IMG/VR virus record: IMGVR_UViG_2537561980_000013
Reading direction: 5' to 3' (one strand)
Origin: a virus
Lineage: Duplodnaviria; Heunggongvirae; Uroviricota; Caudoviricetes
Length of the DNA stretch: 19,318 bases
Below are positions 1 to 7,155 of the stretch, piece after piece. Below the pieces are notes generated by a model. The model did no database searches, was not told where the DNA came from, and saw nothing but the letters and a program-made list of their open reading frames with translations. The translations under genes were made by a program, and so were the position numbers. Each line of letters opens with the position of its first letter. The stretch's first letter is position 1.

Positions 1-387
1 CCATTCAGCGCTGCCGCCCCCGGGCGCACTGATTGCTGTTCCATCGACAAGACGCAATCTCTTTCCGCTTGTACAACCCGTAACTGCGGCGCGTACAGCA
101 AGTGTTTGTGCGGCAAGTATGCCAAACCAGTCGGCGGCATTCCGCAGCCGCTTCAGGAGAGCCACGTCAGATAATGTTGCAACGTCATGGAGCTGAGCCC
201 ATGCAGTGACTTCACGTAATGACATCCCCCCGGGGCCGTAAGCCAGCCCCAGACGTAGCAGAGTTGCAGCATCACGAATTTCGCGGCGGCGGGTTAGAGC
301 CCCGGCATTACGTGCCGAAGTATCCAGTTCTTCGGGCTTACCAATATGGGCCAGAATTGCTGACCAGTTATCGTGAGAGTAATTCAT
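1..387 (-). CDS. insL: IS186/IS4-family transposase, N-terminal 129 codons (C-terminus outside window)
   Basis: Manual minus-strand translation from the ATG at 387-385 gives MNYSHDNWSAILAHIGKPEELDTSARNAGALTRRREIRDAATLLRLGLAYGPGG..., matching my recollection of the IS186 transposase N-terminus. Not in the ORF track because the reading frame is open to the window edge. Confidence 0.8.
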   Translation of the reverse strand, partial: MNYSHDNWSAILAHIGKPEELDTSARNAGALTRRREIRDAATLLRLGLAYGPGGMSLREVTAWAQLHDVATLSDVALLKRLRNAADWFGILAAQTLAVRAAVTGCTSGKRLRLVDGTAISAPGGGSAEW

Positions 388-442
388 CGGCACGTTAAAT
401 CATATCAGGCGTAATACCACAACCCTTAAGTTAGCGCTTATG
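1..442 (-). mobile_element. IS186-like (IS4 family) insertion sequence, partial; transposase-start-proximal end
   Basis: Reverse complement of 420-442 is CATAAGCGCTAACTTAAGGGTTG, which I recall as the IS186 terminal inverted repeat. The element runs off the 5' edge of the window. Confidence 0.75.
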
Positions 443-464
443 GGATCTCTCCCCGCCAGGTCTC

Positions 465-620
465 TTACCTTTCAGATTCGTAGGCTGTGAAGACAGTGAC
501 CTCCGTCTGGCCGGTTCGGATTCGTACCTCGCAGAGGTCTTTCCTCGTTACCAGTGCCGTCACAATGACGGTTAAACAGATGACGATCAGAGCGATTAAT
601 ATCGCTTTATGCTGCTTCAT
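465..620 (-). CDS. hok: Hok/Gef-family type I toxin (51 aa, single TM helix)
   Basis: Manual translation gives MKQHKAILIALIVICLTVIVTALVTRKDLCEVRIRTGQTEVTVFTAYESER, a near match to recalled HokD/RelF and HokC/Gef. AAGGAG RBS 8 nt upstream; TAA stop at 467-465. Too short for the ORF track. Confidence 0.85.
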   Translation of the reverse strand: MKQHKAILIALIVICLTVIVTALVTRKDLCEVRIRTGQTEVTVFTAYESER

Positions 621-742
621 AGCCTGCTTCTCCTTGACCTTTTGGTCGGTAAGAGGCTAATCTACGTATGCTAAGCATAGATATGGCCTCAGATTAATGT
701 TAAGCGTCTTGCAGGACGCGTAATGTTATCTGGGGCTTTCTT

Positions 743-777
743 CTATCTGCTTTTCGGGTAATGCCTGAAGCAGATAG
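743..777. promoter_or_regulatory. Perfect 10-bp inverted repeat (CTATCTGCTT / AAGCAGATAG, 15-nt loop) in the presumed hok mRNA leader / sok region
   Basis: Read directly from the sequence. No flanking U-tract on either strand, so probably an RNA structural element or operator rather than a terminator. Confidence 0.3.
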
Positions 778-801
778 CCTCAAGCACCCGCAACGATTGT
801 A

Positions 802-1047
802 TCAATGTCTGGCTTTTTTTCTATAGAAATCACCTGGAAGGGTGAATATCCACATCAGAAGAAATGTTGCAGCAAACATGATCCCTAATGGCCAGACCGC
901 GCCAAAGAAAATCCATACTAAGATCTCCTCTGCTTGTTCTTTGCGGTCGATATCGACAAGCATTTTTCGGCTGATCATGTATACACAGAAGCCAATACAA
1001 ACATATCCTGCAAAAGCGATCGCTAACTGTAAAAAATCAGATTGCAT
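802..1047 (-). CDS. Small inner-membrane protein, two predicted TM helices, charged C-terminus (81 aa from internal ATG; track ORF extends to 1128)
   Basis: ORF track 802..1128. The ATG at 1047 has a GAGG RBS 9 nt upstream and avoids overlap with the upstream gene; the ATG at 1128 has no RBS. Hydrophobic stretches FLQLAIAFAGYVCIGFCVYMI and ILVWIFFGAVWPLGIMFAATFLLMWIFTL. Confidence 0.45.
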   Translation of the reverse strand: MQSDFLQLAIAFAGYVCIGFCVYMISRKMLVDIDRKEQAEEILVWIFFGAVWPLGIMFAATFLLMWIFTLPGDFYRKKARH

Positions 1048-1097
1048 CTCCGACCTCAAACCGAAAACGCCAGGTGACTCCAGATTAGAGCAATCTA

Positions 1098-1367
1098 TCA
1101 CCCTCTGAATCCTGCCGGTATACCCCATTGTTCGTTATCTTTATTTTTGGCTAAAACCGCATTAAGAGCTTCGTTTACCGTCATGCAATGCGGCAGATTA
1201 TCGAAGTTTGATATCCCGCCAATATCAGGAGAACGCTTGTCCTTCAGGTAAGCATATTTCCGCGCTGCCGCCTCTACTTTCTGCTTGAACTCATGTTTTT
1301 GAGCGCGTTTTTTGGATAACCGCAGATTGTCAGCCTTTGCTTTTGCCTCAGCGATCCATGAAGTCAA
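1098..1367 (-). CDS. Hypothetical basic/helical protein (89 aa)
   Basis: ORF track. Start overlaps the stop of the upstream gene by 4 nt (translational coupling). No family recognised. Confidence 0.45.
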   Translation of the reverse strand: MTSWIAEAKAKADNLRLSKKRAQKHEFKQKVEAAARKYAYLKDKRSPDIGGISNFDNLPHCMTVNEALNAVLAKNKDNEQWGIPAGFRG

Positions 1368-1942
1368 TTTTTTGAGTCTGGTCGTTCCGGCACCGCCGGA
1401 AACTGATCTTTTTGTTTTTTAACTTGTGACTTCTTATTCTTTATTGCCACGTCATCCTGACAGGGGGAGGGGGTATCATTTTGACATGGGGGTGTGGATA
1501 AAAAATTAAATAAAGCCAATGTCTTAGCGAGAACAGCTTTAACCTTGGTTGCCGCTGAAGAGATCTTTAATTTGCTTTCAATCAGCGCATTTTTGGCTTG
1601 TTGTGCGAAGGCCAAAAAGGATGGTGTAAACCGGTACAGGTTAGCGCGACGTTCACGGTGATCGCCGATAACAATCTCTACAGACAGGATTCCTTTGTTT
1701 ACAGCTTCACGGAATGCACGAACGACGGTTGATTGGCTATAACCAGTTTCTGCCGCGATCAGGCGGTGAGGCTTGTGAATGAAGTATTCACTGGTTGTTG
1801 CCGCGAGATTTGCACATTGCGACAAGATATGCCCGGCGCTACGGGATAGACCGGAGTGTGTTACAAAGCAGGCCAATTCATAGCCAGAAAAAGTAAAATC
1901 GCTCATCGTTATACAGCTCAGGAAAGTGACTTTAGCCAGCAT
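1364..1942 (-). CDS. Putative winged-HTH DNA-binding protein (regulator or replication-initiator-like); start uncertain (1942 or 1906)
   Basis: ORF track. Segment LIAAETGYSQSTVVRAFREAVNKGIL resembles a helix-turn-helix; C-terminal region is Lys/Ser/Pro-rich. Neither candidate start has a strong RBS. Confidence 0.5.
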   Translation of the reverse strand: MLAKVTFLSCITMSDFTFSGYELACFVTHSGLSRSAGHILSQCANLAATTSEYFIHKPHRLIAAETGYSQSTVVRAFREAVNKGILSVEIVIGDHRERRANLYRFTPSFLAFAQQAKNALIESKLKISSAATKVKAVLAKTLALFNFLSTPPCQNDTPSPCQDDVAIKNKKSQVKKQKDQFPAVPERPDSKN

Positions 1943-1971
1943 TACAATGCTGGTGGTTCTTACTACGTCTG

Positions 1972-2772
1972 TTAGCGCGTCGCCGCGACAGGCACCAGCA
2001 CACCAGCATCAAGCAATCGCTTCATAAGCCACTGCTGACCTTTGCCGGTTATACGAGTCGTGAAAGAAATCCTGCTTCCATTGCTTGTATCGATCACGGT
2101 TTCTTTAAGGGTGAAATACCCACGGGATATGTATTCTTGTTTGGGGACGTTCCTGCGTTCACCGGTTGCGATCAGAATTCCGTTATCACGCAACCAGGTG
2201 AAGAGATAGTTTTGGCCCAGGCCGAGCACTTTGGCATAGTTGCCGATTAGAACCCCGCTGGCGGTAGCAACGCGTTCGGCGAATTCGACTTTAGGTGCAT
2301 CCATAAGCATTTTTTGCTCCAGCCGTTGCTTTTGCTCTGCCAGGTCGGCAGCCAAACGGAGAGCTTCAGGGAGACTCTGCGGAATAGCAGGTTGTAATCT
2401 TCCAGCTCGATAGTCGATAAATGTCTGGTTTACCTTCAGCCGAAACGCGGGAGAAATCCAGCCTGCGTACTCCACAGCGAGCAATTCATGGGCAAAAGTG
2501 CCGCCGCCACGGCCTTCGAACGAAACTATGCAATTCTGCATAGTTTCTTTTTCAAGCTCTTCGATGAGCTGTTTAGCTGACAGCGTTCTTAGCCATTGAG
2601 CTGGCGCTTTATGGGCACCGAGTCCGCTCGCTCTGTGTAGAGCATTAAGGTTGTAACGGCCAGCGCGGTCGGTCGTAATTTCAACACCACAAATAACGGG
2701 CAGAGTGGTTGAAGGATCGACATTTTGATGAAGGTTTGATATATTCATATCCGCATTGAATGTTTGTTGCAT
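1972..2772 (-). CDS. Phage anti-repressor, KilA-N N-terminal domain plus KilAC/ANT C-terminal domain
   Basis: ORF track. N-terminus (YNLNALHRASG...WLRT...AVEYAGWISPAFRLKV) has the KilA-N pattern; C-terminus (LPEALRLAADLAEQK...GNYAKVLGLGQNYLFTWLRDNGIL...GKGQQWLMKRLLDAG) has the ANT pattern. GGAGA RBS upstream. Confidence 0.8.
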   Translation of the reverse strand: MQQTFNADMNISNLHQNVDPSTTLPVICGVEITTDRAGRYNLNALHRASGLGAHKAPAQWLRTLSAKQLIEELEKETMQNCIVSFEGRGGGTFAHELLAVEYAGWISPAFRLKVNQTFIDYRAGRLQPAIPQSLPEALRLAADLAEQKQRLEQKMLMDAPKVEFAERVATASGVLIGNYAKVLGLGQNYLFTWLRDNGILIATGERRNVPKQEYISRGYFTLKETVIDTSNGSRISFTTRITGKGQQWLMKRLLDAGVLVPVAATR

Positions 2773-2830
2773 TTTTTCTCCAAATTTGCATCAACCTTCA
2801 ATCACCAGCTCGAAATGGTGATTCTTTGCA

Positions 2831-2860
2831 CTTAGAAAACGAAATTTATTAGAGCAAATT
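2831..2860. promoter_or_regulatory. Conserved element copy 1 (CTTAGAAAACGAAATTTATTAGAGCAAAT), upstream of the 1972-2772 anti-repressor gene
   Basis: 15-nt core AAATTTATTAGAGCA is identical to 4510-4524, with similar flanks; read directly. Confidence 0.4.
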
Positions 2861-2903
2861 TTTCTGACTCGATCCAGATCGGGTTGGACGATCTGCTCAG
2901 AAA

Positions 2904-2934
2904 CCTGCCAGTTTGCTGGCAGGTTTTTTCTTTT
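2904..2934. terminator. GC hairpin (CCTGCCAG-tttg-CTGGCAGG) followed by TTTTTTCTTTT on the plus strand; possible bidirectional terminator
   Basis: Read directly. The strong T-tract is on the plus strand, while the adjacent stop codon (2936) belongs to a minus-strand gene. Confidence 0.5.
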
Positions 2935-2935
2935 G

Positions 2936-3979
2936 TTAACCTATTGCTACTGGTTTTAACAAACCAGCATCAAGTAGCTTGCGAGTTAACCACTGCTGGC
3001 CTTTACCCGTTAATTGGGGCGTCAGCCGTATCTGGTAGCCATTTTCATCATCCAGCACCACTTCTTTCACCGTGAAATACCCGGCGTTGATGTACTGTTG
3101 GCGCGGTACGTTTTTGCGCGCACCAAAAGCCATGAGAATGCCGTTCTGGCGCAACCATGAGAAAAGGGCGTTTTGCTTAAGTCCAACGACCTTTGCAAAG
3201 TTCCCGATCAGGATTCCATTAGCCGCTGATACCCGGTCGGCAAAATCGACTTTAGGGGCTGCGGCCACCAGCTGTTGTTCCAACTGCATTTTCTGTTCTG
3301 CCAACTCGGCAGCCAGGCGTAGAGCGTCTGGTAATGTTTGGGGGATCGATGGGGCAGGGGAGTTTGCCTGCTGCAATTCTTCCAGTTTGTCGATCAGCGA
3401 ACGGCGGACTGCTTTTGACTCGCGCGCGGCGACTCGCAGGGCTTGTTTGTAGGTCATGGTTATGACAACCATAGGCGTACCGCCACCTGGCGGCACGGTT
3501 GCACTTTTTGTGTAACCGTCCTCACCTTCTAATTCGTCGAGTATTTTTTTGATGAATTTGTTGTTCCGAACCTCTGGTTCCCCACATAACTTACGCGCTT
3601 CATTGACCATCTTTAACAGCGTCTGGCTGTCGATTGTGTCTCCAGTGTTGGAGATAACATTCACAGCTGGTGATGGCGTAGCTGAAGCAACAGATGCTGG
3701 TTTTTTAACATTCAAATTATTACTGGTCATTCTATGTGCCTCCTTTCTCATTTCTGCTGCCACCGTTGCGTAACGTAGACGTCCTTGTTCAATCAAATAA
3801 TCCCTGATCTCGGCTATCAGTAGCCTGTTGATCACAGCCTTATCTGTTCGGGTATAAAAACGTCTGGTTATCATGAAATAGTTGGCAATTGCGCCGGGGA
3901 TCTCCCGTGTCGGCATACAGGCAGTATGCAGGGCGATCGCTTCGGCTATGTCATTACGGGTGACGAGAGGTTTTTTCAT
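2936..3979 (-). CDS. Phage anti-repressor paralog with KilAC/ANT C-terminal domain and a distinct N-terminal region
   Basis: ORF track. C-terminal ~130 aa closely parallel those of the 1972-2772 product (LPDALRLAAELAEQK...GNFAKVVGLKQNALFSWLRQNGIL...GKGQQWLTRKLLDAG). AGGGGG RBS upstream. Confidence 0.75.
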   Translation of the reverse strand: MKKPLVTRNDIAEAIALHTACMPTREIPGAIANYFMITRRFYTRTDKAVINRLLIAEIRDYLIEQGRLRYATVAAEMRKEAHRMTSNNLNVKKPASVASATPSPAVNVISNTGDTIDSQTLLKMVNEARKLCGEPEVRNNKFIKKILDELEGEDGYTKSATVPPGGGTPMVVITMTYKQALRVAARESKAVRRSLIDKLEELQQANSPAPSIPQTLPDALRLAAELAEQKMQLEQQLVAAAPKVDFADRVSAANGILIGNFAKVVGLKQNALFSWLRQNGILMAFGARKNVPRQQYINAGYFTVKEVVLDDENGYQIRLTPQLTGKGQQWLTRKLLDAGLLKPVAIG

Positions 3980-4197
3980 AAAACCCCCTGAACGTCGGCA
4001 GAGAAGGGGAGGTTCCAGTAACTAAGTGAATTGCGCGAGTTAGTTGAAAAACGGGCAGTAAAAATGCAGGGGCCATCAGGCAATTGAGAGCGTGCTTCGT
4101 CTTCTGTTGCTGCGATGACGAAGTGATAGTGGTGTTTTTTGCAGGAATAGAAACGCCAGATGAATTCTTGGCGTGCGCAAGGATTGGCATTAACCAT
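3976..4197 (-). CDS. Small hypothetical protein (73 aa), translationally coupled to the downstream anti-repressor
   Basis: ORF track. GAGG RBS 8-9 nt upstream of the ATG at 4197; stop overlaps the next start by 4 nt. Preferred over the alternative-frame ORF 3954..4190. Confidence 0.5.
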   Translation of the reverse strand: MVNANPCARQEFIWRFYSCKKHHYHFVIAATEDEARSQLPDGPCIFTARFSTNSRNSLSYWNLPFSADVQGVL

Positions 4198-4496
4198 AGT
4201 TACGGCCTCGTAAGTTGATAAACAACCTGCGACCCGCTGCTAAACAGGTGGCAGGACGTGACGGGGTTAGCAGACTGGCACTTACGAAACCAGCAGGCCG
4301 AAGCCTCCCCATCACGCCCCACCATAATTCGGGCGTAACGTGGTTTACGGACACAAAAATACCGCAATATCGGAAATCTGCGGTTGTCCGCGTAAGTATT
4401 CAGGCTGCTAAACCCGGTCGCAGAATTTGCTACGACGGCGAAACTATAAGCCTGAACGATTAAAAGGTCAATATGATGCAAAAAGATAGCATTCGC

Positions 4497-4528
4497 GACT
4501 TAAAAATACAAATTTATTAGAGCAGATT
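4497..4528. promoter_or_regulatory. Conserved element copy 2 (CTTAAAAATACAAATTTATTAGAGCAGAT) at the head of the minus-strand anti-repressor operon
   Basis: Same 15-nt core as 2842-2856. A possible minus-strand -35 (TTGCAC, revcomp of 4535-4540) lies just outside it. Confidence 0.4.
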
Positions 4529-4558
4529 AGTGTCGTGCAATAGATATATTATTTGTGA

Positions 4559-4667
4559 TGAAAAATAATGCAGATGGATATTGTAACTTTAAGATGGATA
4601 TCAATAGTCGATACATAAATTAAGTTAGCAATAAACTATTAACTTAAGAAATAATGCAGATGGTGAA
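4559..4667. repeat. Direct repeats AAATAATGCAGATGG (4563-4577 and 4649-4663) in the AT-rich divergent intergenic region
   Basis: Read directly; TAAGTTAG also occurs twice (4621-4628, 4697-4704). Candidate operator sites. Confidence 0.4.
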
Positions 4668-4807
4668 CTTGTCTCTGACTTTTCAGCTATACACAATAAG
4701 TTAGGGATAGCTTATAAAAAGTTGATTAATTGATATAAGTCAATGGGAGTATTCTTGTTTACTTTCCGTTCTTGTGGTAACTTCTCGCCGGTTTTTGTTT
4801 TTCTGGG

Positions 4808-5329
4808 ATGATTCTTATGTCTAAAAAGTATACTTTATGCGCTCTTGTTGTATCTGCAATTCTTCTTTCTGGGTGTCAATCTAGCGGTGCTGATTATGCT
4901 GCCGATGTTTATGATACCGCTCAATTGAATTCGAAGCAGGAAACAAAGACAGTCAATATTATCTCTGTGCTTCCAGCTAAAGTGAAAGTTGATAATAAAG
5001 CTAATAAAGAAGCGGCACAGACATTTGGTGCGGTACTGGGAGCTGTTGCTGGGGGCGTTGCCGGTTATAATGTTAAAGGCACATCGACACTGGGTGCTGT
5101 AGCTGGCGGTACTGGTGGTGCGGCTCTTGGTGCAGCGGCTGGTTCTTTGGTTAGTGATAAAACAATTGTTGAAGGTGTTTCACTGACTTATAAAGAAGGA
5201 ACTAAGGTGTTCACTTCAACTCAAGTTGGTAAAGCATGCCAGTTTACAACGGGGCTTGCTGTGCTTATTTCAACTAAAGATAATGAAACTCGAATTCAGC
5301 CAAATGCTACTTGTCCAGAAAAGAAATAA
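4808..5329 (+). CDS. SlyB/PCP-like glycine-zipper outer-membrane lipoprotein (start 4808 or 4817)
   Basis: ORF track. Signal peptide with lipobox LLSGC; two glycine-zipper stretches (GAVLGAVAGGVAGY, GAVAGGTGGAALGAAAGS); overall architecture parallels recalled SlyB. AT-rich codon usage. Confidence 0.8.
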   Translation: MILMSKKYTLCALVVSAILLSGCQSSGADYAADVYDTAQLNSKQETKTVNIISVLPAKVKVDNKANKEAAQTFGAVLGAVAGGVAGYNVKGTSTLGAVAGGTGGAALGAAAGSLVSDKTIVEGVSLTYKEGTKVFTSTQVGKACQFTTGLAVLISTKDNETRIQPNATCPEKK

Positions 5330-5332
5330 TTT

Positions 5333-5872
5333 ATGAATAAAATTATTTTATTTCTAATCTTTTCTACGTTTAGTGTAGGCACTGCCTTGGCTAACTCGTT
5401 GCAAAGTCAAATTGCTGCTATTGCTCAAGCGGAAAATGAAGGGCGAGCTAAAGAGCAGCAAGCTGAGGATGCCAGAAAAGAACTTATTCGCCAACAAGCA
5501 CAAGCTGAACGTATTAGAAGAGAAAAAGCAGCATCTGCCGCTGCTGCACGCGAAAAACAGCGTGTTGCTGCAGAAAATGAACGTAGAGCGAAACGAGAAG
5601 CCGAGCTAGCAAATGACAAGAAGCGAGATCAAGCTTATGAGGATGAGCTTCGCAAGCTGCAACTCGAAAGCATGAAACTCGAACTGCAAGCAAAAGCGGC
5701 TCGTGTCCAGCGAGAAAACGATTTTATAGAGCAGGAGTTGAAGGAGAGAGCAGCTAAGACAGATGTAATTCAGTCTGAGGCTGATGCAAATAGAAATATT
5801 TCTACAGGAAGTAAAGATTTACTGCAAAGCGAAGGAAAAGCTAGAGAGAAGAAAGCTAGCAGTTGGTGGTAG
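5333..5872 (+). CDS. Secreted (signal-peptide) Ala/Glu/Arg/Lys-rich coiled-coil protein
   Basis: ORF track. N-terminal signal peptide (…FSVGTALA|NS), then ~150 aa of charged heptad-like sequence. Starts 3 nt after the lipoprotein stop (operon). Confidence 0.7.
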   Translation: MNKIILFLIFSTFSVGTALANSLQSQIAAIAQAENEGRAKEQQAEDARKELIRQQAQAERIRREKAASAAAAREKQRVAAENERRAKREAELANDKKRDQAYEDELRKLQLESMKLELQAKAARVQRENDFIEQELKERAAKTDVIQSEADANRNISTGSKDLLQSEGKAREKKASSWW

Positions 5873-5911
5873 TAATCACTACGATTGCGAGCATACTGTC
5901 ACAAATGACAA

Positions 5912-6519
<608 letters not shown>

Positions 6520-6529
6520 GAGGGCTGAT

Positions 6530-7141
6530 ATGGGGTTTAATGTTGCTTCAGTAAAGTCTTATGTATCTTCGGCATTAACGACGACATTATTTGGCTCCGG
6601 CGTTGGTGAACGGGAAGTTGGTAAGCTGACGTCAATCATCATGAACAAAATGCTGTTCGCGCAAGGATGGCAGTTCTCTGTCGAAGTTGATGGACTGGAG
6701 GGGGCAGACTTCTTTGCCAAAGATATTACCTACCACGATTACAGCATCGAATATGAAACGATTAAAATCGGCGGAGGGAATATCCTTCAACCAACGGAGC
6801 GTTCGCCTGGGCAGATAACAATGATGGTCAGGGATACCGTTGATGGCCTCGTTTTGGACTGGTTTAAGACGGCAAAAAGTCGGGTGATCAATCCGGACGG
6901 TACCGGGAATATACCGTCTAAATATTTGCTCAATGTGCGTATTTATCGGTTGCTGTCTTCCGGCTTAACCAAACTGGAAAATGAGATGACGGTATTCCCG
7001 GTCACTACCGGCGATGTCACCTATGCGCGAGATCAGGTTACTGAATTTAAGTCATTCCCAATGACCTTCGCATTGCACAGCACGTTTAACCAATCCTCAA
7101 GTTCTTTGGCTTCCCTTCTGGGCTTTAGCTTTTCTCTTTGA
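6530..7141 (+). CDS. Putative major tail / tail tube protein
   Basis: ORF track. GAGG RBS. Position upstream of chaperone and tape measure genes; motifs FSVEVDGLEG...IEYETIKIGGG...SPGQITMMVRD are reminiscent of tube proteins. Weak assignment. Confidence 0.5.
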   Translation: MGFNVASVKSYVSSALTTTLFGSGVGEREVGKLTSIIMNKMLFAQGWQFSVEVDGLEGADFFAKDITYHDYSIEYETIKIGGGNILQPTERSPGQITMMVRDTVDGLVLDWFKTAKSRVINPDGTGNIPSKYLLNVRIYRLLSSGLTKLENEMTVFPVTTGDVTYARDQVTEFKSFPMTFALHSTFNQSSSSLASLLGFSFSL

Positions 7142-7155
7142 ATTAAGGAGCAAGG

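What the first reader, a model, noticed from the sequence alone, without database searches (positions are those of the whole stretch)
4808..5872. Low-GC insert: SlyB-like glycine-zipper lipoprotein with a secreted coiled-coil partner (candidate envelope-level exclusion module)
This is the strongest candidate in the window for an uncharacterised accessory system. Two co-directional genes are separated by 3 nt and are visibly more AT-rich than the flanking phage genes (by-eye estimate about 35-40% versus about 50% GC). They sit at a classic moron position between the lysogeny-control region and the tail genes and are bracketed by a repeat-rich promoter region and a perfect hairpin. Gene 1 has a lipoprotein signal (LLSGC) and two glycine-zipper stretches with a SlyB/PCP-like overall layout. 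Gene 2 has a cleavable signal peptide followed by about 150 aa of Ala/Glu/Arg/Lys-rich predicted coiled coil, similar in composition to TolA domain II. Prophage-encoded outer-membrane lipoproteins are a known route to superinfection exclusion (Cor and Llp are lipoproteins that mask receptors), but I do not know a described system with a SlyB-paralog and periplasmic coiled-coil pairing.
Basis: partly seen in the sequence, partly recalled or inferred. Interest (0 to 1): 0.75.

Follow-up and report, generated by a model that had tools for sequence, protein, structure and literature searches.

The report
Phage-borne copy of yfgH-yfgI envelope genes
A P1/P7-type phage-plasmid carries its own diverged copy of the bacterial yfgH-yfgI outer-membrane gene pair exactly where phage P1 keeps its sim superinfection-exclusion genes; the genes are real and well conserved, but belong to a known, partly characterised family, and an exclusion role is so far only a positional hint.

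Summary
Two co-directional genes (4808/4817-5329 and 5333-5872) lie in a low-GC 1,376-bp cassette (40.2% vs 47.4% GC) between the immI immunity region and the late tail operon of a P1/P7-type phage-plasmid. They are P7 upf50.5/upf50.0.

The pairing is not undescribed. The genes are paralogues (68% and 47% identity) of the E. coli chromosomal pair I identify by synteny as yfgH-yfgI (srgIL in S. Typhi). Gene 1 is a SlyB-type glycine-zipper lipoprotein (profile vs SlyB 7OJF, E=5e-9; Foldseek E=8e-7). Gene 2 is DUF5384 (E=3e-43), predicted as one ~23-nm helix.

166 of 174 gene-1 homologues have an adjacent gene-2 homologue. The pair has entered at least three kinds of temperate element. Among P1-slot alleles dN/dS is 0.04-0.12.

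New here: the cassette exactly replaces P1's simABC superimmunity operon, and every alternative cassette I inspected in that slot also encodes proteins with signal-peptide-like N-termini.

Best reading: a YfgHI-type outer-membrane module carried as prophage cargo. An exclusion role is plausible (about 0.25-0.3) but untested. It is not a TraT, Sim, Cor or PADLOC family member.

Verdict: new member of a known kind, moderate interest.

The parts
4244..4449 (-). Left-flank context: C4 antisense RNA (4244-4329) and its a1/b1 target region (4397-4449) of the immI immunity operon
   Evidence: Rfam RF01695 at 70.8 bits and RF03163 at 55.3 bits, both above their gathering scores; P7/P1 annotation
4510..4526 (-). 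C1 repressor operator Op51/Op(c4), AAATTTATTAGAGCAGA on the + strand; homology to P1 ends at 4524, inside it. This is the left cassette junction.
   Evidence: Annotation transferred from P7 and P1; BLAST breakpoint; sequence read directly. The 15/17 match to the operator consensus rests on my recollection of that consensus.
4525..5900 (+). 1,376-bp low-GC cassette that replaces P1's 1,513-bp simABC segment
   Evidence: Window 1084-4524 and 5901-8385 align to P1 at 96-98% identity and the segment between does not; GC 40.2% vs 47.4%
4563..4663 (+). AT-rich upstream spacer with an exact 15-nt direct repeat AAATAATGCAGATGG (4563-4577, 4649-4663) and a 10-nt repeat AGATGGATAT (4572, 4592)
   Evidence: the repeat finder families D6 and D11
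4729..4744 (.). Palindrome ATTGATATAAGTCAAT; candidate operator or promoter element specific to the mobile clade
   Evidence: TTGAYA-N3-4-GTCAA occurs upstream of gene 1 only in the P1-slot alleles and their prophage sister L013 (5 of 99 upstream regions, counting the window and its identical P7 copy separately; about 0.02 expected per region)
4808..5329 (+). Gene 1 (P7 upf50.5): YfgH/SlyB-type glycine-zipper outer-membrane lipoprotein. The likely true start is ATG 4817, giving 170 aa. Lipobox Cys23; zipper helices about 64-88 and 94-113; C-terminal beta domain with invariant C144 and C169.
   Evidence: 68% identity to the E. coli chromosomal lipoprotein; profile vs SlyB 7OJF E=5e-9; Foldseek SlyB E=7.9e-7, TM 0.53/0.63; invariant columns; secondary structure; GGGA at 4805-4808 and 170-aa homologues
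5333..5872 (+). Gene 2 (P7 upf50.0): YfgI/DUF5384. Signal peptide of about 20-21 aa ending ALA; poorly conserved ER/K-type spacer of variable length; conserved ~85-aa C-terminal helix ending in WW.
   Evidence: Pfam PF17358 E=3e-43, 147.8 bits against a cut-off of 25; 47% identity to the E. coli chromosomal partner; alignment A2; AlphaFold2 single helix, residues 4-178, pLDDT 87; composition and heptad analysis
5903..5921 (+). Late promoter LPsit (-22 region 5903-5911; -10 TAGAAT 5916-5921); right cassette junction and start of the backbone shared with P1
   Evidence: Annotation transferred from P1 and P7; homology resumes at 5901; conserved after three different cassette types
5906..5952 (+). 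Stable inverted repeat (18-nt arms, 12-bp perfect core) overlapping LPsit; a backbone element, possibly also a 3' stem-loop for cassette transcripts
   Evidence: the repeat finder I1; dG -25.5 kcal/mol, z = -5.2; conserved in P1 and Ro157c2YLVW; not followed by a T-run, and the terminator scan did not call it

Best explanation
The cassette is a horizontally acquired, phage-plasmid-borne paralogue of the bacterial yfgH-yfgI envelope operon.

Gene 1 is exported, lipidated at Cys23 and sorted to the outer membrane. There its two glycine-zipper helices insert, and by homology with SlyB and YfgH it assembles into ring-like oligomers that enclose and stabilise patches of lipid and outer-membrane proteins.

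Gene 2 is secreted to the periplasm as a roughly 23-nm rod. It has a variable ER/K-type spacer and a conserved C-terminal segment ending in two aromatic residues. It works with the lipoprotein, probably docking on it or on the outer membrane and reaching toward the cell wall or inner membrane.

The pair is probably transcribed from its own regulatory region, outside the late operon. That gives the carrier cell an extra, differently regulated dose of an outer-membrane-stabilising module: lysogenic conversion for envelope robustness.

Shown: identity of the genes, homology, pairing, mobility, purifying selection and slot replacement. Inferred: ring formation, physical interaction of the two proteins, expression in the lysogen, and the fitness benefit.
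For: Identity: the window is a P1/P7-type phage-plasmid, and the genes are P7 upf50.5/upf50.0.

Homology: 68% and 47% identity over full length to the E. coli chromosomal pair in the ppk...guaA locus. The lipoprotein family profile matches SlyB 7OJF/7OJG over nearly its whole length, E=5e-9. SlyB is the only significant structural match, E=7.9e-7, TM 0.53/0.63. The lipobox Cys, all zipper glycines and two further cysteines are invariant.

Function of the homologue: YfgH fractionates with the outer membrane. Its deletion sensitises cells to SDS+EDTA and raises NPN uptake. It is induced by LpxC/LptD/BamA knock-down, and leaky expression rescues BamA/LptD depletion and OMP levels. AlphaFold3 models give SlyB-like rings (10.64898/2025.12.22.696046). 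yfgH interacts genetically with lptD, and its mutant is vancomycin-sensitive (PMC3219608). A yfgI deletion leaves 7% survival on nalidixic acid (PMC3536626).

Pairing: 166 of 174 gene-1 homologues have an adjacent gene-2 homologue. The two genes' distance matrices correlate at r=0.92, Mantel p<=0.001.

Maintained function: dN/dS is 0.04-0.12 among P1-slot alleles, with dS from 0.5 to above 1.

Recurrent mobility, always as a pair: P1 slot (L001, L008, L107, L178); prophage tail-fibre ends (L010, L013); a Rep3 phage-plasmid with tail-fibre, holin and endolysin genes (L015).

Gene 2 shape: a single helix with pLDDT 87; the 158 mature residues correspond to about 23.7 nm.
Against: E. coli hosts already carry yfgHI, so a second, diverged copy is not obviously needed for plain stabilisation.

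The slot's only characterised occupant (sim) is an exclusion function, and all the alternative cargos I inspected there have signal-peptide-like N-termini.

Slot alleles are far more diverged (dS above 0.5) than the 96-99% identical backbone. That pattern of cassette swapping is common at conflict loci.

No promoter was identified, so expression in the lysogen is assumed.

The gene-1 AlphaFold model is poor (pLDDT 52). Ring formation and YfgH-YfgI contact are not shown even for the chromosomal proteins: the preprint itself says it lacks strong biochemical evidence of oligomers, and it does not mention yfgI.

There are no experimental data on the phage copy.
Confidence: 0.5

Rival explanations
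1. Envelope-level exclusion module that functionally replaces sim. The SlyB-type ring lipoprotein and its periplasm-length rod alter the outer membrane or periplasm of the carrier cell so that incoming phage DNA (or conjugative DNA, as with TraT) cannot get in, for example by encasing receptor OMPs or obstructing the tail's path across the periplasm.
For: The cassette occupies exactly the P1 simABC slot, bounded by the C1 operator and LPsit. The sim genes are annotated as superimmunity functions and are non-essential, and the region is one of eight variable low-GC regions of P1-like phage-plasmids (PMC9603915). SimA/B/C, both Ro157-type proteins and this pair all have signal-peptide-like N-termini. 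Slot alleles are strongly diverged on a near-identical backbone. A DUF559-domain gene is co-resident in the slot in a Cronobacter IncY plasmid. TraT provides a precedent for chromosomal outer-membrane lipoproteins co-opted repeatedly by mobile elements for exclusion (PMC11733297). There is a recurrent weak TraT Pfam signal, E=7e-5. A mobile-clade-specific upstream palindrome implies regulation distinct from the chromosomal copy.
Against: No homology to SimC (E 0.04-5), to any PADLOC model, or to Cor beyond the signal peptide. The TraT matches are below threshold: 23.1 bits against a cut-off of 31, and Foldseek E about 0.3 with TM 0.25. The nearest characterised homologue has a housekeeping-like stress role, and the family is mostly chromosomal. 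From my own recollection of the older literature, not checked here: P1 and P7 are heteroimmune and plate on each other's lysogens, and sim acts visibly only from multicopy clones, so strong exclusion of P1-type phages by a single-copy prophage is unlikely.
Confidence: 0.27
2. The pair serves the phage's own lytic cycle or virion yield. It might hold the outer membrane together until programmed lysis, or reduce membrane shedding that would act as a decoy for progeny. It would not benefit the lysogen.
For: The cassette lies immediately upstream of the late tail operon. Mutants lacking yfgH are reported to bleb and shed outer membrane under vancomycin. YfgH is induced by outer-membrane damage.
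Against: The cassette is upstream of, not inside, the LPsit-driven late operon. Equivalent slot contents (sim) are dispensable for P1 plaque formation. Roughly two thirds of P1-like elements in E. coli complete genomes lack the cassette (165 with it out of about 500).
Confidence: 0.1
3. A two-component spanin-like lysis pair: an outer-membrane lipoprotein plus a periplasm-spanning helical protein that fuse the membranes at lysis.
For: Superficial architecture only: an outer-membrane lipoprotein followed by a long helical envelope protein of periplasm-scale length. There is a weak PHROG hit to an Rz-like spanin, E=0.038, confined to the signal-peptide region.
Against: Orthologues are conserved in chromosomal housekeeping neighbourhoods with outer-membrane-protective phenotypes. 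Gene 2 has a cleavable-type signal peptide (AxA) rather than a membrane anchor. Gene 1 is a 150-residue SlyB homologue, which by my own knowledge is unlike a short proline-rich o-spanin. The pair is not in a lysis cassette and not under the late promoter.
Confidence: 0.02
4. Selectively neutral hitch-hiking cargo: a piece of foreign chromosome trapped in a recombination hotspot, with no role for the phage.
For: Low GC3, similar to the Xenorhabdus-type chromosomal pair (24/31% vs 27/24%). The slot is a known variable region.
Against: dN/dS of 0.04-0.12 for both genes across slot alleles with near-saturated synonymous sites. Both reading frames are intact in 165 E. coli complete-genome records and 163 PLSDB plasmids at >=99% identity. 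There are independent captures by other temperate elements, always as an intact pair.
Confidence: 0.04

Closest known systems
E. coli YfgH-YfgI (S. Typhi SrgI-SrgL) chromosomal envelope operon
   Same: Same two families, in the same order and tight spacing. 68% and 47% identity over full length. Same lipobox, glycine zippers, conserved cysteines, DUF5384 C-terminal block and terminal aromatic pair.
   Different: Located on a phage-plasmid in the sim slot rather than next to guaA. GC3 is 24/31% against 41/50%. The intergenic gap is 3 nt against 15 nt. The upstream region differs and carries a palindrome restricted to the mobile clade. In the NJ tree the copy branches with a prophage allele and nearer the Xenorhabdus copies than E. 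coli yfgH. The function of the phage copy is untested.
SlyB (PDB 7OJF/7OJG), outer-membrane glycine-zipper ring lipoprotein
   Same: Homologous over nearly the whole length (profile E=5e-9). Same order of elements: beta strand, two-helix glycine-zipper hairpin, beta domain. It is the only significant fold match.
   Different: Only about 25% identity in the structural alignment. SlyB has no DUF5384 partner that I know of (own knowledge, not tested). The YfgH preprint reports distinct suppressors (clsA vs the Mla pathway) and no cross-complementation between YfgH and SlyB.
Phage P1 SimA/SimB/SimC superimmunity operon
   Same: Identical genomic slot between the C1 operator/c4 promoters and LPsit. 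Low GC. The products have signal-peptide-like N-termini. The region is dispensable and variable among P1-like elements.
   Different: No detectable sequence similarity. Three genes rather than two. No lipoprotein and no glycine zipper.
TraT surface-exclusion lipoprotein of F-like plasmids (PDB 9FS5, 9E2V)
   Same: An outer-membrane lipoprotein that forms rings with an alpha-helical membrane domain. A chromosomal family co-opted repeatedly by mobile elements. There is a weak sub-threshold Pfam match across the glycine-rich helices.
   Different: The Pfam score of 23.1 is below the cut-off of 31. Foldseek gives E about 0.3-0.4 and TM about 0.25. TraT chains are about 225 residues against about 150 mature residues here, and TraT has an extracellular ring domain. 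Not a member.
Prophage outer-membrane lipoproteins Cor, Llp (receptor masking) and Bor (serum resistance)
   Same: Small prophage-encoded outer-membrane lipoproteins carried as cargo that change the surface properties of the lysogen (own knowledge).
   Different: The only similarity is in the lipoprotein signal peptide (PHROG Cor E=0.022, residues 10-54). Those are single genes without a periplasmic partner, and they have no glycine zipper.

Membership tests
SlyB/YfgH-type glycine-zipper outer-membrane lipoproteins | Lipoprotein signal peptide with lipobox Cys and no Asp at +2 (outer-membrane sorting) | tested here: met
   A-I-L-L-S-G-C23-Q; Cys23 is invariant in 25 homologues. The +2 sorting rule itself is from established knowledge.
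SlyB/YfgH-type glycine-zipper outer-membrane lipoproteins | Two consecutive GxxxG glycine-zipper helices | tested here: met
   G74, G78, G82, G86 and G104, G108 are invariant and G100, G112 nearly so; helices predicted at 64-88 and 94-113. The Pfam glycine-zipper models hit below threshold: PF05433 at 18.2 bits vs 24.2.
SlyB/YfgH-type glycine-zipper outer-membrane lipoproteins | Full-length sequence and fold homology to SlyB | tested here: met
   Profile of A1 vs 7OJF: E=5e-9 over profile positions 9-162 and chain residues 6-153 of 155. Foldseek 7ojf_A: E=7.9e-7, probability 1.00, TM 0.53/0.63. Caveat: the query model has mean pLDDT 52.
SlyB/YfgH-type glycine-zipper outer-membrane lipoproteins | Assembly into ring oligomers that enclose lipid or OMP nanodomains in the outer membrane | not testable with these tools
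   Only monomer prediction was available. For YfgH itself the rings are AlphaFold3 models without strong biochemical support.
YfgH subfamily | High identity to E. coli YfgH, including the C-terminal beta domain with two conserved cysteines | tested here: met
   68% identity over 167 residues with no gaps; C144 and C169 invariant.
YfgI / DUF5384 (PF17358) | Pfam score above the gathering cut-off | tested here: met
   147.8 bits against a cut-off of 25, E=3e-43, profile positions 4-145 of 145.
YfgI / DUF5384 (PF17358) | Encoded immediately downstream of a yfgH-type lipoprotein gene | tested here: met
   A 3-nt gap here. 166 of 174 loci have the adjacent partner, with a modal gap of 15 nt.
TraT surface-exclusion protein (PF05818) | Pfam score above the gathering cut-off, or a significant structural match to the TraT decamer subunit | tested here: not met
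   23.1 bits against a cut-off of 31. Foldseek 9e2v/9fs5: E 0.29-0.41, TM 0.24-0.25. The A1 profile does not retrieve TraT from the PDB at E<=10.
P1 Sim superimmunity proteins | Sequence homology to SimA, SimB or SimC | tested here: not met
   BLASTP of both proteins against SimC gives E of 0.044 or worse, with only short spurious segments. SimA and SimB were not compared formally; their printed sequences show no obvious resemblance. Only the genomic position is shared.
P1 Sim superimmunity proteins | Confers exclusion of superinfecting P1-type phage | not testable with these tools
   Needs efficiency-of-plating assays.
Known anti-phage defence systems (PADLOC-DB v2) | Match to any defence-protein model | tested here: not met
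   No family at E<=1 for either protein.
Cor / Llp receptor-masking lipoproteins | Homology beyond the signal peptide | tested here: not met
   PHROG Cor family: E=0.022, residues 10-54 only.
Two-component spanins (Rz/Rz1 type) | Membrane-anchored i-spanin plus a short o-spanin lipoprotein, located in a lysis cassette | tested here: not met
   Gene 2 has a cleavable-type signal peptide. Gene 1 is a 150-residue SlyB homologue. The position is outside any lysis cassette. The PHROG spanin hit, E=0.038, covers the signal region only.
DNA methyltransferase (label of phrog_1277 and RefSeq records) | Any methyltransferase domain | tested here: not met
   No such Pfam or NCBIfam hit. The label is an annotation error.

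The most novel reading that the evidence does not exclude
The P7-type cassette is a new kind of envelope-level exclusion system. A SlyB-type ring lipoprotein and a ~23-nm periplasmic rod, captured repeatedly from the chromosomal yfgHI stress operon by temperate phages and phage-plasmids, functionally replace P1 sim by blocking DNA entry of competing phages or plasmids across the outer membrane and periplasm. That would also imply that chromosomal YfgHI itself affects phage or conjugation susceptibility.
Probability: 0.25. Interest if true: 0.7.

Novelty: new member of a known kind. Interest (0 to 1): 0.42.

Why it matters
About a third of P1-like phage-plasmids in complete E. coli genomes (165 of about 500), and 163 PLSDB plasmids, carry this pair at >=99% identity. 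These elements are common vehicles of resistance genes.

Recognising the pair as a mobile yfgHI paralogue does three things. It corrects widespread mis-annotation ('DNA methyltransferase', 'tail tip protein'). It links a barely studied envelope operon to phage biology: YfgH was first characterised in a December 2025 preprint, and YfgI/DUF5384 has no assigned mechanism. And it gives a concrete hypothesis, testable by simple cloning: either an extra outer-membrane stabiliser that makes lysogens tougher against detergents, chelators or antibiotics, or a sim-replacing exclusion device.

The analysis also gives DUF5384 a first structural hypothesis: a single helix of periplasm-scale length with a variable spacer and a conserved C-terminal segment. 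Finally, it documents the sim slot as a hotspot for cargo with signal-peptide-like N-termini.

Tried and rejected
- Single-sequence search of the PDB found nothing for either protein; only the family profile found SlyB.
- The AlphaFold2 model of gene 1, built from a shallow 25-sequence alignment, was poor (pLDDT 52). I used it for a fold search with that caveat. I did not run a fold search on the gene-2 single helix, because any match would be uninformative.
- PADLOC gave no hits.
- NCBIfam gave only noise.
- The sigma-70 promoter scan was no better than chance, and the terminator scan did not call the 5906-5952 hairpin.
- I looked by eye for a sigma-E-like promoter (GTAACTT...TCTGG at about 4779-4806). 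I rejected it because the spacing is wrong and it is not conserved in L107.
- Rfam found no known RNA inside the cassette.
- The TL-2011b 'phage' copy and about 60 IMG/VR hits at 66-69% identity looked like further phage carriers. They are chromosomal yfgH at the edge of prophage predictions: same yfgG/pdeF flank, and they cluster with E. coli chromosomal yfgH.
- L015 has no nucleotide match in the phage collection. I call it a phage-plasmid only on PHROG evidence; 'SSU5-like' remains my guess.
- L010's tail module has only a 200-bp nucleotide match to known phages, so its phage nature rests on Pfam domains.
- The P1 genome paper (PMC523184) is not held, so statements on the Sim mechanism rest on my own knowledge.
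- A literature search for DUF5384 returned nothing.
- The mirror-tree correlation shows co-inheritance only. It is not evidence of physical interaction.
Full report
**What is there.** The window is a P1/P7-type phage-plasmid (Punavirus). The region 4400-6000 is 99.1-99.7% identical to phage P7, SJ46, RCS47, JL22 and P1-like records. It matches 165 records of complete E. coli genomes over at least 80% of its length, almost all of them plasmids. The two ORFs at 4808-5329 and 5333-5872 are P7 upf50.5 ('outer membrane lipoprotein of unknown function') and upf50.0 ('membrane protein of unknown function'). To the left lies the immI immunity region. Rfam finds C4 antisense RNA at 4244-4329 and its a1/b1 targets at 4397-4449, both on the minus strand, with icd and ant beyond them. 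To the right lies the late operon pmgC/tubA-tub-pmgB-sit.

**The insert and its edges.** BLAST against P1 aligns window 1084-4524 and 5901-8385 at 96-98% identity. The 1,376 bp in between do not align. In P1 that space (1,513 bp) holds simA-simB-simC, annotated as the superimmunity operon. The left junction falls inside the C1 operator Op51 (window 4510-4526). The right junction falls at the -22 element of the late promoter LPsit (window 5903-5921). The cassette is 40.2% GC against 47.4% for the rest of the window, and lower than any same-size window elsewhere (minimum 42.5%). GC3 is 24% and 31% against 42-52% in neighbouring genes. The 'perfect hairpin' is real (5906-5952, dG -25.5 kcal/mol, z = -5.2). 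However, it is conserved downstream of three different cassette types and overlaps LPsit, so it belongs to the backbone. The AT-rich upstream spacer contains exact 15-nt and 10-nt direct repeats. A sigma-70 promoter could not be demonstrated.

**Gene 1.** The protein has the lipobox LSG-C23 with Gln at +2. It has two glycine-zipper helices and a C-terminal beta domain with two invariant cysteines. The likely start is ATG 4817, because GGGA lies 8 nt upstream and the closest relatives are 170 aa. A profile of 25 family members matches E. coli SlyB (7OJF/7OJG) over nearly its whole length at E=5e-9. The AlphaFold2 model was poor (pLDDT 52). Even so, SlyB was its only significant structural match (E=7.9e-7, TM 0.53/0.63). 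TraT decamer subunits ranked next but were not significant (E about 0.3-0.4, TM about 0.25). The Pfam TraT hit (23.1 bits) is below the cut-off of 31. So 'SlyB-like' is supported, and TraT membership is not.

**Gene 2.** It is a clear DUF5384 member (147.8 bits). The family alignment shows a signal peptide, a poorly conserved Ala/Glu/Arg/Lys/Gln-rich spacer of variable length, and a strongly conserved C-terminal ~85 residues ending in WW/WF/FF. AlphaFold2 predicts one continuous helix with pLDDT 87. The 158 mature residues correspond to about 23.7 nm, which I recall as roughly the width of the periplasm. Only residues ~92-135 show heptad-like a/d hydrophobicity. The N-terminal ~75 mature residues are 4-11% hydrophobic and look more like an ER/K single-helix spacer than a coiled coil.

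**The pair is known on the chromosome.** The largest cluster of gene-1 homologues (3,349 member sequences, 68% identity) sits in E. coli between ppk-ppx-pdeF-yfgG and guaA-guaB-xseA, followed by a DUF5384 gene. I identify these as yfgH and yfgI from the synteny and my own knowledge of the K-12 map; one PLSDB record already auto-annotates the plasmid gene as 'yfgH_2'. Xenorhabdus has the pair between plsY and tsaD. The family reaches Pseudomonas, Pasteurellaceae, Sutterella and Campylobacter. Across 174 loci with a gene-1 homologue, 166 have the partner directly downstream. The two genes' distance matrices correlate at r=0.92, which shows they are inherited and transferred as a unit.

Published work shows the following. 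yfgH interacts genetically with lptD, and its mutant is vancomycin-sensitive (PMC3219608). YfgH is an outer-membrane lipoprotein whose loss sensitises cells to SDS/EDTA, and it is induced by outer-membrane damage. Leaky expression of it rescues BamA/LptD depletion, and it is modelled as SlyB-like rings (bioRxiv 10.64898/2025.12.22.696046). A yfgI mutant is nalidixic-acid sensitive (PMC3536626). The S. Typhi orthologues srgIL are induced by SdiA and AHL (PMC11619404). None of these papers mentions the phage-borne copies, and the YfgH preprint does not mention yfgI.

**The phage copy is a distinct, maintained, mobile lineage.** In a neighbour-joining tree without bootstrap support, the P1-slot alleles (window/P7, L008, L107) form a clade with a Salmonella prophage-end allele (L013) as sister. 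That clade lies nearer the Xenorhabdus chromosomal clade than E. coli yfgH. GC3 also resembles the Xenorhabdus pair. Other copies lie at the tail-fibre end of an E. coli prophage inserted beside torT (L010). Another sits next to the Rep3 gene of a ~102-kb element that also carries tail-fibre, holin, endolysin and exonuclease VIII genes (L015). These branch elsewhere in the tree, suggesting separate captures. Among P1-slot alleles dN/dS is 0.04-0.12 for both genes, while dS runs from 0.5 to above 1, on a backbone that is 96-99% identical. So the genes are functional, and the slot exchanges old, diverged alleles. A palindrome, TTGAYA-N3-4-GTCAA (window 4729-4744), occurs upstream of gene 1 only in this mobile clade, which hints at its own regulation.

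**The slot.** PMC9603915 lists simABC as one of eight highly variable, low-GC regions of P1-like phage-plasmids. In complete E. coli genomes the pmgC flank occurs in about 500 records. Of these, 165 carry this cassette, 127 carry complete sim, and more carry partial or variant sim. A third type, in phage Ro157c2YLVW, encodes two unknown proteins, the first sharing SimA's leader peptide. Other elements add genes beside the pair: YfjT-like and SH3_3 proteins in L008, and a DUF559 protein in a Cronobacter IncY plasmid. SimA, SimB, SimC, both Ro157-type proteins and both proteins here all have signal-peptide-like N-termini by a simple hydropathy heuristic.

**Mechanism.** I commit to the following, at confidence about 0.5. 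The pair works biochemically like YfgHI: an outer-membrane ring-forming stabiliser plus a periplasmic rod. It is carried as lysogenic-conversion cargo that toughens the carrier's envelope. The main rival (about 0.27) is that the same architecture has been put to use as an envelope-level exclusion device replacing sim. The arguments for it are positional and comparative: the sim slot, the exported cargo theme, the allele turnover, and the TraT precedent for co-option of a chromosomal outer-membrane lipoprotein (PMC11733297). Against it stand the lack of homology to any exclusion or defence family and the housekeeping-like role of the closest homologue. I also recall that P1 and P7 plate on each other's lysogens, though I did not check this. 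A role in the lytic cycle, a spanin-like role and neutral hitch-hiking are each less likely (see the rival explanations).

**Verdict.** This is a new member of a known kind: a mobile yfgHI paralogue. Its context, replacing sim, I did not find described in the literature I searched. Interest is moderate (0.42). It would rise to about 0.7 if an exclusion function were shown.

Noticed in passing
window 4808-5329; RefSeq NC_050152, NC_031129, NC_042128, NC_019445; phrog_1277; OR339795: The lipoprotein is labelled 'DNA methyltransferase' in PHROGs and RefSeq phage records, and phage phi456 labels the pair 'minor tail protein / tail tip protein'. No methyltransferase or tail domain is detectable, so these are propagated annotation errors.
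   Followed up: yes
L012 (TL-2011b) 1-3425; IMG/VR loci L108-L176: The TL-2011b record and dozens of IMG/VR prophage predictions end inside the chromosomal pdeF'-yfgG-yfgH-yfgI flank. Host DNA in these 'viral' records inflates the apparent phage distribution of the family.
   Followed up: partly
L177 2724-3899; L008 5032-9298; L178 5389-6648 (same slot as window 4525-5900): The sim slot is a cargo hotspot. Ro157c2YLVW has two proteins of unknown function with signal-peptide-like N-termini, the first sharing SimA's leader. L008 adds 107-aa, 118-aa, YfjT-like and SH3_3 genes. A Cronobacter IncY plasmid adds a DUF559-domain gene after the pair.
   Followed up: partly
window 4729-4744: Palindrome ATTGATATAAGTCAAT (TTGAYA-N3-4-GTCAA) is found upstream of the lipoprotein gene only in the mobile clade (P1-slot alleles and the Salmonella prophage allele L013) and not upstream of chromosomal copies. 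The regulator is unknown.
   Followed up: partly
window 8119-11807 (sit tail gene): There is a 297-nt tandem duplication (8221-8432 and 8518-8729, 84% identical) relative to P1 and P7. The reading frame stops at 8778 and a second ORF starts at 8817, so sit appears split into 219-aa and 996-aa parts. This could be a defective prophage, a sequencing error or a real variant.
   Followed up: partly
window 4808 vs 4817: The annotated start of gene 1 is probably 9 nt too far upstream. ATG 4817 has GGGA 8 nt before it and matches the 170-aa homologues. The 31-aa signal peptide in the P7 annotation also disagrees with the lipobox at Cys23.
   Followed up: yes
window 3457-3578 (ant1): A short stretch inside ant1 does not align with P7 in the BLAST comparison but does align with P1, which suggests mosaicism within the immI region.
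   Followed up: no
PLSDB NZ_CP060089.1 9306-9803 (Vibrio parahaemolyticus, 121-kb plasmid): A 48.5%-identical homologue of the lipoprotein lies on a large Vibrio plasmid; three Vibrio plasmid records match in all. This may be another mobile capture outside Enterobacterales.
   Followed up: no
L010 4104-5378: In the E. coli prophage beside torT, a PLD-domain (PLDc_2) protein gene sits directly next to the yfgHI-like pair at the prophage end. It may be additional cargo of unknown role.
   Followed up: no
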